Source: a virus. From it: a stretch of 14,145 bases of DNA. This document shows, one piece after another, positions 11,807-11,948 of the stretch (position 1 is the stretch's first letter; every line of letters begins with the position of its first letter). The stretch lies in UHGV virus genome UHGV-0225651, one strand, 5' to 3'. The notes under the pieces are model-generated. The model searched no databases. It was not told where the DNA came from and was given only the letters and a program-made list of their open reading frames with translations. The position numbers and the translations under genes are program-made.

Positions 11807-11948
11807 ATTATCTTTGTAGATAAGTTATTAAGCTTACCTGTGAGTATGCGACCACAAAGGGTGAAAGGGTAAATTCTAGATTTAAACCCAACAAGGCACA
11901 TCGCTACAGACCTTAAGCAAGTCTGGGTAGCTTATCTACAAAGATAAT
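11807..11948 (+). ncRNA. Structured RNA domain closed by an 18-bp perfect long-range helix
   Basis: ATTATCTTTGTAGATAAG (11807-11824) is the exact reverse complement of CTTATCTACAAAGATAAT (11931-11948), enclosing about 106 nt with no ORF; lies between the permuted tRNA-like module and tRNA-Lys. Confidence 0.4.

What the first reader, a model, noticed from the sequence alone, without database searches (positions are those of the whole stretch)
11807..11948. 18-bp perfect long-range helix enclosing a non-coding domain of about 106 nt
ATTATCTTTGTAGATAAG and its exact reverse complement lie 106 nt apart between the tRNA mimic and tRNA-Lys. A perfect 18-bp helix is far beyond chance in a 14-kb window and implies either a structured RNA (second domain of the same ncRNA as the tRNA mimic, analogous to the long Ro-binding stem of Y RNAs) or a DNA-level inverted repeat such as the termini of a tiny mobile insert. 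The enclosed sequence has no ORF and carries further copies of the CAGACC/GTCTGG motif.
Basis: seen in the sequence. Interest (0 to 1): 0.62.

Follow-up and report, generated by a model that had tools for sequence, protein, structure and literature searches.

The report
Conserved structured RNA before phage tRNA-Lys
The 18-bp inverted repeat is the closing stem of a roughly 145-nt, pseudoknotted non-coding RNA that Felix O1-like phages keep immediately upstream of their tRNA-Lys gene; it matches no described RNA family and sits 1.2 kb downstream of a Ro60-like protein gene.

Summary
An 18-nt (19-nt) perfect inverted repeat lies at 11807-11824 / 11931-11948; no dinucleotide shuffle of the window exceeds 15 nt. 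It is an RNA helix, not a mobile-element terminus. Homologs occur in seven phage lineages, from Felixounavirus, Mooglevirus and Suspvirus out to a Yersinia phage and metagenomic relatives whose neighbouring protein is only 53-63% identical. All keep a 22-25 bp closing stem (P1) whose sequence is largely replaced, and each 5' arm pairs strongly only with its own 3' arm. G-U pairs fit only the + strand, the strand of the tRNAs. The interior keeps a covarying hairpin P5 continuous with P1, a conserved loop C(C/U)U(A/U)(A/U)GCAA that forms a covarying pseudoknot with the strand after P1, and a hairpin with a palindromic apex. There is no conserved ORF, no Rfam hit, and no copy in E. coli genomes; its conserved core is absent from 185,579 bacterial and archaeal species genomes. 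The element always lies directly 5' of a tRNA-Lys gene while its upstream neighbour varies, so it is an independent unit, not a second domain of the adjacent tRNA mimic. The upstream gene folds like Ro60, so a Y-RNA-like role is possible but unproven; the canonical Ro-binding motif is absent. Best reading: a stable RNA processed from the tRNA operon, function unknown.

The parts
11806..11829 (+).
   Evidence: compensatory changes; own-arm specificity
11832..11836 (+). J1/2 strand GCUUA, 5' half of the proposed pseudoknot with loop L5
   Evidence: helix 2: 98% of cells paired, U-A in 12 sequences and A-U in 10; GCUUA:UAAGC in lineages A, C and D; GCUAA:UUAGC in B, E and F
11842..11846 (+). Conserved GAGUA segment; a CGA follows a few nt later in types A and B
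   Evidence: read from the sequences: GAGU context present in lineages A-D; not examined in E-G
11867..11889 (+). P4 hairpin GGGUAAAUUCUAGAUUUAAACCC; AUUCUAGAUU is invariant in types A and B; the apex palindrome UCUAGA (11875-11880) is the only TCTAGA in the window
   Evidence: (helices 5 and 6: 100% paired, 3 compensatory pairs)
11907..11925 (+). P5 hairpin: CAGAC (11907-11911), loop L5 CUUAAGCAA (11912-11920; UAAGC at 11914-11918 pairs with J1/2), GUCUG (11921-11925); directly continuous with the 3' strand of P1
   Evidence: stems CAGAC/GUCUG, CAAACC/GGUUUG, CAGUC/GACUG, CUGUUC/GAACGG, AAAGUC/GACUUU, CAGUCC/GGAUUG, AGAGAC/GUCUCU
11926..11949 (+).
11954..12029 (+). tRNA-Lys(UUU), the constant downstream neighbour; RNase P cleavage at its 5' end should create the 3' end of the element (inferred)
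11672..11805 (+). Upstream neighbour in this genome: a YrlA-like circularly permuted tRNA mimic (terminal helix AGACCGUU 11678-11685 / AACGGUCU 11795-11802, T-arm, 7-bp acceptor-like stem closed by a loop, D-arm). Context only, not part of the element
   Evidence: order of arms compared with YrlA
9209..10624 (+). Ro60-like protein gene (Pfam DUF2828 + DUF7788), same strand, ends 1.18 kb upstream; candidate protein partner (inferred)
10734..10763 (+). Sigma-70-like promoter (TTGACA-18-TAAAGT with TG; a second one at 10643-10671) that probably drives the tRNA/ncRNA operon containing the element; no + strand terminator-like site before the next promoter at 12278

Best explanation
The inverted repeat is P1, the 22-25 bp closing stem of a roughly 145-nt structured non-coding RNA (window 11806-11949, + strand). 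It is transcribed as part of the phage tRNA operon. The fold is P1, then a J1/2 strand that forms a pseudoknot with loop L5, then a variable P2/P3 region, then hairpin P4 with a palindromic apex, then hairpin P5 stacked directly on P1. Shown here: the helices exist under selection at the RNA level on the + strand, the unit is non-coding and confined to this phage group, and it is an independent unit always placed directly 5' of a tRNA-Lys gene. Inferred: RNase P cleavage at tRNA-Lys +1 frees its 3' end 0-5 nt after P1 in most lineages. P1 defines the ends and protects them against exonucleases, and at two helical turns it is also a plausible RNase III processing stalk. The pseudoknotted core is the functional part and acts as a stable protein-binding RNA. 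The most likely partner is the Ro60-like protein encoded 1.2 kb upstream. That would make it a non-canonical Y-RNA-like molecule alongside the neighbouring tRNA mimic and the four 'CAGAAGACC...GGUCUGG' modules.
For: The repeat is far beyond chance. Across 22 distinct sequences of types A and B, P1 and P5 are paired in 99.8% of cells and 5 pairs show double compensatory changes; slid controls give 28-46% paired and no compensatory changes. The full model including the pseudoknot gives 96.6% paired and 17 compensatory pairs, against at most 3 in slid controls (this alignment was fitted to the model). A model built from type B alone finds the window's type A copy at 56.6 bits and diverged copies in L165, L166, L167, L171, L172 and L173 at 21-39 bits. 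P1 is 22-25 bp in all seven lineages although its 5' strands are only 48-72% identical. Own-arm duplexes are -25 to -29 kcal/mol; cross-lineage duplexes are mostly -2 to -16, with one pair between the two closest types at -19.5. Each P1 has 2-5 G-U pairs, which would be A-C mismatches on the other strand. The element sits in a promoter-to-promoter unit with no terminator-like site. It has no conserved ORF. It lies directly 5' of tRNA-Lys in all lineages. The upstream protein is Ro60-like by fold: its top 11 PDB matches are all Ro60/Rsr/TROVE structures, E about 1e-8, TM 0.64, over the full length. Phage annotators call the family 'Ro-like RNA binding protein'. Known bacterial and phage Y RNAs are encoded within about 2 kb of Ro60 on the same strand and have a 5'-3' terminal stem.
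Against: No transcript, processing or binding data exist for this RNA. The known Ro-binding motifs (GGUCCGA bulged helix; GNCGAAN0-1G) are absent from the window's copy, and only 2 of 10 type-B sequences carry GCCGAAG. No Y_RNA or YrlA model hit appears at E <= 10. The element was not detected next to about 75 more distant DUF2828 genes, so it is not a general partner of that protein family. Phage SP116 lacks the element and still has the Ro-like gene, so the element is dispensable at least in the laboratory. Similar long helices precede tRNA-Leu(UAG) and tRNA-Arg(UCU) in the same array, which fits a purely cis-acting processing role as well. Most covariation comes from a limited number of lineage splits.
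Confidence: 0.6

Rival explanations
1. The element is a purely cis-acting 5' leader or processing module for tRNA-Lys. P1 is an RNase III (or other nuclease) processing stalk that cuts the polycistronic precursor just upstream of tRNA-Lys, or that controls RNase P access. The excised piece has no function of its own.
For: P1 is held at 22-25 bp, two helical turns, which by general knowledge is the size of RNase III substrates, in all seven lineages. It ends 0-5 nt before tRNA-Lys +1 in five of the seven. Two other long helices end the same way before tRNA-Leu(UAG) (13086-13175, conserved in L165/L166) and tRNA-Arg(UCU) (12471-12505). The linkage to tRNA-Lys persists while the upstream neighbours change.
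Against: A processing stalk does not need a conserved, pseudoknotted 100-nt interior. L5, its J1/2 partner, P5 and the P4 apex are conserved or covary across lineages. The other pre-tRNA helices have small, simple interiors. No cleavage data exist.
Confidence: 0.25
2. One reading: the helix is the second domain of the same ncRNA as the tRNA mimic, the equivalent of the Ro-binding stem of a YrlA-type Y RNA.
For: In the window and in types A and B, the mimic's terminal helix ends 3 nt before P1. The mimic has the YrlA order of arms. A Ro60-like gene lies upstream.
Against: In L165/L166 the element follows a plain module with no mimic. In L167, L171, L172 and L173 a tRNA-Ala gene directly precedes the element or its spacer, and in L167 the mimic is in the spacer before that gene. 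ESCO49 keeps the element with only half a mimic. The mimic already has its own terminal helix, which it shares with three other modules.
Confidence: 0.05
3. The repeat acts at the DNA level: terminal inverted repeats of a miniature mobile insert, or a palindromic protein-binding or cruciform site.
For: A long perfect inverted repeat flanks a non-coding segment. The interior differs sharply between type A and type B, and some Felixounaviruses (pSJ21, OPT-SAL01) carry a type-B interior between type-A flanks, which looks like cassette exchange.
Against: There is one copy per genome, no copy in 5,426 E. coli genomes, and no match to the conserved core in 185,579 species genomes. The position is the same in all relatives. 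The arms co-vary instead of staying identical. G-U pairs and one-sided A-U to G-U changes are tolerated only on the + strand. Deletion end-points fall in T-arms, not at the repeat. Internal helices and a pseudoknot also covary.
Confidence: 0.03

Closest known systems
Bacterial and phage Y RNAs (Yrn1, YrlA/YrlB; phiLo Yrl1/Yrl2) bound by Ro60/Rsr
   Same: Encoded within 2 kb of, and on the same strand as, a Ro60-type protein gene. Roughly 100-150 nt with a long stem formed by the 5' and 3' ends that encloses a structured 'loop' domain. Several different RNAs per locus, one of them a tRNA mimic.
   Different: The protein resembles Ro60 only by fold (12-16% identity; Pfam DUF2828/DUF7788, not TROVE). 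The element lacks GGUCCGA, GNCGAAN0-1G and CGAA in the expected place. P1 has no bulge. No Rfam Y_RNA or YrlA hit. It is embedded in a tRNA operon and tied to tRNA-Lys. Binding is untested.
Phage T4 species 1 and 2 RNAs (rnaC, rnaD)
   Same: Small, stable, non-tRNA RNAs of about 120-140 nt encoded inside a phage tRNA cluster on the tRNA strand. From my own knowledge, they are processed from the tRNA precursor and their function is still unknown (annotation).
   Different: No sequence or structure homology: the element's model finds nothing at rnaC/rnaD. rnaC carries a T-arm-like hairpin, and the element has no tRNA-like arm.
RNase III processing stalks (rRNA operon stems, T7 early-mRNA sites)
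   Same: A long-range helix of about two turns that encloses a unit within a polycistronic transcript (general knowledge; helix length).
   Different: Those stalks enclose rRNAs or simple loops. Here the enclosed 100 nt is a conserved pseudoknotted fold of its own. Cleavage is untested.
Large phage-associated ncRNAs found near tRNA genes (ROOL, GOLLD)
   Same: Structured RNAs of unknown function in phage genomes, often beside tRNA genes, that self-assemble through loop-loop contacts (my own knowledge). The element has a palindromic apical loop that could support dimerisation.
   Different: Those are 500-800 nt RNAs with Rfam families. The element is about 145 nt and has no Rfam match.

Membership tests
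Y RNA (Ro60-associated ncRNA) | Encoded close to (about 2 kb or less) and on the same strand as a Ro60 ortholog | tested here: met
   The gene at 9209-10624 (+) ends 1.18 kb upstream. Its AF2 model (pLDDT 89) has Ro60/Rsr/TROVE structures as its 11 best PDB matches. Caveat: the similarity is at the fold level only, and Pfam calls the domains DUF2828 and DUF7788.
Y RNA (Ro60-associated ncRNA) | 5' and 3' ends pair into a long terminal stem that encloses a large loop or domain | tested here: met
   P1 of 22-25 bp in seven lineages. The true RNA ends have not been mapped.
Y RNA (Ro60-associated ncRNA) | Conserved Ro-binding motif (bulged helix with GGUCCGA in animals; GNCGAAN0-1G or CGAA near the 5' end in bacteria and phages) | tested here: not met
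   Absent from the window's copy. P1 has no bulge. Only L002 and L029 (type B) have GCCGAAG, and it lies in the interior.
Y RNA (Ro60-associated ncRNA) | Match to curated covariance models (Rfam Y RNA / YrlA families) | tested here: not met
   No such hit at E <= 10 in window 10950-12850 or in L172 7960-8670.
Y RNA (Ro60-associated ncRNA) | Physical binding by the Ro60 protein | not testable with these tools
   Needs RIP/CLIP or EMSA.
Second domain of the YrlA-like tRNA mimic | Always contiguous with the tRNA-like domain | tested here: not met
   No mimic is adjacent in L165/L166. In L167 the mimic was located in the spacer before a tRNA-Ala gene that separates it from the element. tRNA-Ala also precedes the element in L171-L173.
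Miniature mobile element with terminal inverted repeats | Multiple copies, or presence/absence as a unit bounded by the repeats | tested here: not met
   Single copy. The locus is the same in about 250 phage records. Natural deletions end in T-arms. None in E. coli genomes, and the conserved core is absent from 185,579 species genomes.
RNase III processing stalk | Helix of roughly 20 bp or more (two turns) flanking a unit in a polycistronic transcript | tested here: met
   22-25 bp in all lineages. The element sits inside a promoter-to-promoter unit with no terminator-like site.
RNase III processing stalk | Cleavage by RNase III in vivo or in vitro | not testable with these tools
   Needs an rnc host or purified enzyme.
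T4 rnaC/rnaD stable RNAs | Sequence or structure homology | tested here: not met
   A full-sensitivity search of the T4 tRNA region with model R1 gave only noise (9 bits or less), none at rnaC/rnaD on their strand.
tRNA or tRNA-like RNA | Cloverleaf or T-arm detected | tested here: not met
   No ARAGORN or Rfam tRNA-clan hit within 11806-11949.

The most novel reading that the evidence does not exclude
The element is a new, non-canonical class of Y RNA. It would be the partner of the DUF2828-type Ro60-like protein that about 700 phage genomes carry, often next to tRNA arrays or tmRNA genes. It would bind through P1, P5 and L5, possibly as a kissing-loop dimer through its palindromic apex, and form an RNP that protects, repairs or controls the phage tRNA-Lys(UUU). 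The host version of that tRNA is the classic target of anticodon nucleases such as PrrC.
Probability: 0.15. Interest if true: 0.8.

Novelty: new variant of a known kind. Interest (0 to 1): 0.58.

Why it matters
Phage tRNA clusters are usually annotated as tRNAs plus 'spacers'. Here the largest spacer element proves to be a conserved, pseudoknotted RNA that is kept across phages whose proteins have diverged to about 55% identity. It has no Rfam family and I found no literature on it. It lies in a locus that combines a Ro60-like protein, a YrlA-like tRNA mimic and four modules with a shared terminal helix. What Ro60/Y-RNA systems do in phages is an open question. Felix O1-type phages grow on E. 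coli K-12 and Salmonella and have a natural deletion variant (SP116), so they would be a tractable system for testing it. Practically, a covariance model of this RNA could stop the spurious 'hypothetical protein' calls made over it in many deposited genomes.

Tried and rejected
1. Anticodon-arm mimic of tRNA-Lys. In the window P5 (CAGA-C...G-UCUG) resembles the tRNA-Lys anticodon stem (CAGA/UCUG). The two do not change together across lineages, so I rejected this.
2. Coding. The 76-aa minus-strand ORF (11671-11901) and the 'hypothetical proteins' annotated in some records are not conserved and have no Pfam hit.
3. Known RNA families. Rfam gathering and E <= 10 scans of the window and of L172 found nothing for the element. 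The sub-threshold tmRNA hits lie elsewhere in the window.
4. T4 rnaC/rnaD homology: none.
5. Wider distribution. No model hit next to 75 distant DUF2828 genes, nor in L174 or L089 beyond generic long hairpins. Three extra IMG/VR pattern hits were chance matches. No curated Y RNA lies next to DUF2828 genes in 25 distant loci.
6. A single MAFFT alignment of all seven lineages could not keep the P1 strands in register. The automatic model alignment picked up antisense hits. I therefore used per-lineage duplexes and cross-lineage controls and built no second model.
7. An alternative CUAC/GUAG extension of P5, possible in types A and B, is not conserved in type C, which favours the longer P1.
8. 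A motif pattern I wrote for the module 5' half was mis-specified and uninformative. Exact-word counts replaced it.

Full report
**What the window is.** The window carries 18-19 tRNA genes on the + strand. It is 97-100% identical to Felix O1-like myoviruses, genus Felixounavirus. The finding lies in the 431-nt gap between tRNA-Asp (11445-11522) and tRNA-Lys(UUU) (11954-12029).

**The observation.** The repeat is real. In 200 dinucleotide shuffles of the window, the longest perfect inverted repeat with a 3-300 nt spacer was 10-15 nt. With G-U pairs the helix is 24 bp, 11806-11829 / 11926-11949.

**RNA helix or DNA repeat.** About 250 phage records carry the region. I extracted 22 distinct versions from annotated phages and IMG/VR contigs. 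They fall into two sequence types.
- Type A is the window's type.
- Type B occurs in Mooglevirus, Suspvirus and a few Felixounaviruses.

The interiors of the two types are hardly alignable, yet both occupy the same place.

On the MAFFT alignment, P1 and hairpin P5 are paired in 99.8% of cells. Five pairs have changes on both sides (for example U-A to C-G, and G-C to C-G). Partners slid by 1-3 columns give 28-46% paired and no compensatory changes, and 0 of 500 shuffles reach the observed pairing. One-sided changes are A-U to G-U. Every P1 has 2-5 G-U pairs, which fit only the + strand.

A covariance model built from type B alone finds the window's type A copy at 56.6 bits, E about 1e-14.

**Deeper relatives.** I used the neighbouring protein to fetch more distant phages. 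The model found diverged copies in six loci:
- L165 and L166, where the neighbouring protein is 62-63% identical to the window's;
- L167, at 55%;
- L171, at 56%;
- L172, Yersinia phage vB_YenM_P778, at 53%;
- L173, at 53%.

That gives seven lineages, A to G. In every lineage P1 is 22-25 bp (-25 to -29 kcal/mol for the arms defined), although the 5' strands are only 48-72% identical. Each 5' arm pairs strongly only with its own 3' arm. Cross-lineage duplexes are mostly -2 to -16 kcal/mol, with -19.5 for one pair between the two closest types. Shuffling the 3' arm gives z = -7 to -11.

**Architecture.**
- P5 follows the interior and is directly continuous with the 3' strand of P1 in all lineages. 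Its stem covaries: CAGAC/GUCUG, CAAACC/GGUUUG, CAGUC/GACUG, CUGUUC/GAACGG, AAAGUC/GACUUU, CAGUCC/GGAUUG, AGAGAC/GUCUCU.
- The 9-nt loop L5 is conserved as C(C/U)U(A/U)(A/U)GCAA.
- L5 is complementary to the strand just after P1. The pairing is GCUUA:UAAGC in lineages A and C, and GCUAA:UUAGC in B and E. In D and F it is 4 bp of the same kind (GCUU:AAGC and GCUA:UAGC). In G it is unclear. The middle pair therefore switches U-A to A-U in several lineages. On the model-based alignment this pseudoknot is paired in 98% of cells.
- Hairpin P4 (11867-11889) has three compensatory pairs between types A and B and an invariant AUUCUAGAU apex.

The whole model gives 96.6% paired cells and 17 compensatory pairs, against at most 3 in slid controls. 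That alignment was fitted to the model, which favours it.

**What it is not.**
- It is not coding.
- It matches no Rfam family and is not a tRNA.
- It is not homologous to the T4 rnaC/rnaD stable RNAs.
- It is not mobile. It is single-copy and fixed in position. It is absent from 5,426 E. coli genomes, and its conserved core is absent from 185,579 bacterial and archaeal species genomes. The natural deletions in SP116 and ESCO49 arose by recombination between tRNA T-arms, not at the repeat.

**Context.** Three things stand out.

1. The element is always directly 5' of a tRNA-Lys gene. In five of the seven lineages only 0-5 nt separate P1 from tRNA +1. In F a Lys(CUU)-Lys(UUU) pair follows. Its upstream neighbour changes:
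 - in A and B, the tRNA mimic;
 - in C, a plain module;
 - in D to G, tRNA-Ala.

 It is therefore an independent unit and not a domain of the mimic.

2. The unit just upstream in this genome (11672-11805) has the order terminal helix, T-arm, closed acceptor-like stem, D-arm, terminal helix. That is the circularly permuted layout described for YrlA. Its acceptor-like stem covaries among relatives. Its terminal helix and flanks (CAGAAGACC...GGUCUGG) recur in four modules, all on the + strand and paired 1:1.

3. The gene that ends at 10624 (DUF2828 + DUF7788) gives a confident model (pLDDT 89). Its 11 best PDB matches are all Ro60/Rsr/TROVE structures, including a phage Ro60. Some phage annotators already call this family 'Ro-like RNA binding protein', and it occurs in about 700 phage records. 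Roughly half of 60 distant loci with this gene have tRNA arrays or tmRNA genes on the same strand nearby.

Promoter-like sites at 10643 and 10734, the next at 12278, and no terminator-like site between them place the element in one operon with the tRNAs.

**Interpretation.** That the repeat is an RNA stem under selection is, in my judgement, about 95% certain. How the RNA works is inference.

I favour a stable RNA cut out of the tRNA precursor. RNase P at tRNA-Lys +1 would make the 3' end, and P1 would define and protect the ends. Its conserved pseudoknotted core would bind a protein.

The Ro60-like protein is the obvious candidate. Known Y RNAs lie within about 2 kb of Ro60 on the same strand and have a terminal 5'-3' stem. 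Four points count against this:
- the canonical Ro-binding motifs are missing;
- no Y-RNA model matches;
- the element does not accompany more distant DUF2828 genes;
- phage SP116 lives without it.

I therefore do not file it as a Y RNA.

The main rival is a purely cis-acting processing stalk or leader for tRNA-Lys. Two points support it. P1 is kept at two helical turns. Similar long helices end just before tRNA-Leu(UAG) (13086-13175, conserved in L165/L166) and tRNA-Arg(UCU) (12471-12505). That rival does not explain the conserved interior.

**Literature.** The Felix O1 genome paper lists 22 tRNAs in clusters and mentions no other RNAs. Searches that combined Felix O1 or Felixounavirus with Ro60, Y RNA, TROVE or RNA-binding protein found nothing. 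DUF2828 appears only in unrelated papers.

Noticed in passing
window 9209-10624 (+): The 471-aa DUF2828 + DUF7788 protein just upstream of the tRNA array folds like Ro60 (HEAT-repeat ring plus vWA domain). Its top 11 PDB matches are all Ro60/Rsr/TROVE structures. The family occurs in about 700 phage records, and some annotators call it 'Ro-like RNA binding protein'. A DUF5681 gene (8756-9127) precedes it here and in all seven outgroup loci fetched by protein except L174.
   Followed up: yes
window 10961-11034, 11126-11196, 11583-11662, 11672-11806 (+): Four spacer 'modules' share the 5' motif ACAGAAGACC-NNN-UACAGCAA and the 3' motif NNN-GGUCUGG. The helix AGACCNNN/NNNGGUCU covaries between the copies, and the inserts differ (AU-rich hairpins or a tRNA-like domain). 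CAGAAGACC and GGTCTGG each occur exactly 4 times in the window, all on the + strand. They may be multiple Y-like RNAs that share one protein-binding stem. P5 of the element looks like a miniature of this motif.
   Followed up: partly
window 11672-11805 (+): A circularly permuted tRNA mimic with the YrlA order of arms: T-arm GAAGGUUCGAUUCCUUC, a 7-bp acceptor-like stem ACUCGGC/GUCGAGU closed by the loop AGAU, and D-arm GUGUAAUGGUAGCAC. The acceptor-like stem covaries in relatives (a UACG tetraloop version in KPS64 and SUSP2, a different 7-bp stem in Moogle). No Rfam YrlA hit.
   Followed up: partly
window 13086-13175 (+); L165 9904-9997; L166 6129-6222: A second long-helix element: 24 bp including 4 G-U pairs, with an interior of about 40 nt, ending directly before tRNA-Leu(UAG). 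It is conserved in outgroups. In L166 its stem (UCUUUGUAGAU.../...AUCUACAAAGA) is nearly the same sequence as the window's P1.
   Followed up: partly
window 12471-12505 and 12511-12589 (+): A hairpin of about 14-17 bp with G-U pairs ends at ...AAAGAUAAUUA, directly before a tRNA that ARAGORN missed. Rfam scores it as tRNA at 31.7 bits with a long variable region, and relatives annotate it as tRNA-Arg(UCU).
   Followed up: no
window 12263-12510 (+): A 248-nt non-coding stretch with its own near-consensus sigma-70 promoter (TTGACA-17-TATAGT at 12278-12306) and a stable predicted fold. It gives sub-threshold Rfam hits to tmRNA_permuted (29 bits) and tmRNA (15 bits), which probably arise from tRNA-like pieces.
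   Followed up: no
window 12738-12812 (+): A tRNA-like sequence with an acceptor stem (GGGACG/CGUCCC), a T-arm and a 3' GCCA. ARAGORN does not call it (Rfam tRNA-Sec model, 23 bits). It may be a degenerate or unusual tRNA.
   Followed up: no
L007 (phage SP116) 1066-1301; L008 (phage ESCO49) 1180-1373: Natural deletions made by recombination between T-arms. SP116 fuses the mimic's T-arm to the T-arm of tRNA-Lys and so loses the element and tRNA-Lys. ESCO49 loses tRNA-Asp through the first half of the mimic and keeps the element.
   Followed up: yes
L001 (pSJ21), L003 (OPT-SAL01); hits H91-H93: Some Felixounaviruses with type-A flanks carry a type-B interior. The switch falls inside P1: the outer part is type A and the inner part type B. 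This suggests recombinational exchange of the RNA's core between lineages.
   Followed up: partly
window 11875-11880; L165 (ACUAGU); L172 and L173 (loop UAACGUU): The apex of the homologous P4 hairpin carries a 6-nt palindrome in five of the seven lineages, with three different sequences (UCUAGA, ACUAGU, AACGUU). About 10% of shuffled interiors show such a feature by chance. It could support kissing-loop dimerisation. TCTAGA occurs only once in the 14-kb window.
   Followed up: partly
L108, L112, L114, L119, L120, L126, L136: In several distant phages the DUF2828 (Ro-like) gene lies within about 6 kb of a phage-encoded tmRNA gene on the same strand (downstream of it in six of the seven loci) rather than a tRNA array.
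   Followed up: no
L172 8009-8149 (+): In Yersinia phage P778 the Rfam tRNA model matches end to end across 141 nt (36 bits). That suggests a tRNA-like gene with an insert of about 70 nt, or another permuted or mimic form, between tRNA-Ala and the element.
   Followed up: no
GU169904.1 (hit H118): The record named Staphylococcus phage SA1 (147 kb) contains a Felix O1-like Ro-like gene that is 96.6% identical to the window's, so the record is probably chimeric or contaminated.
   Followed up: no
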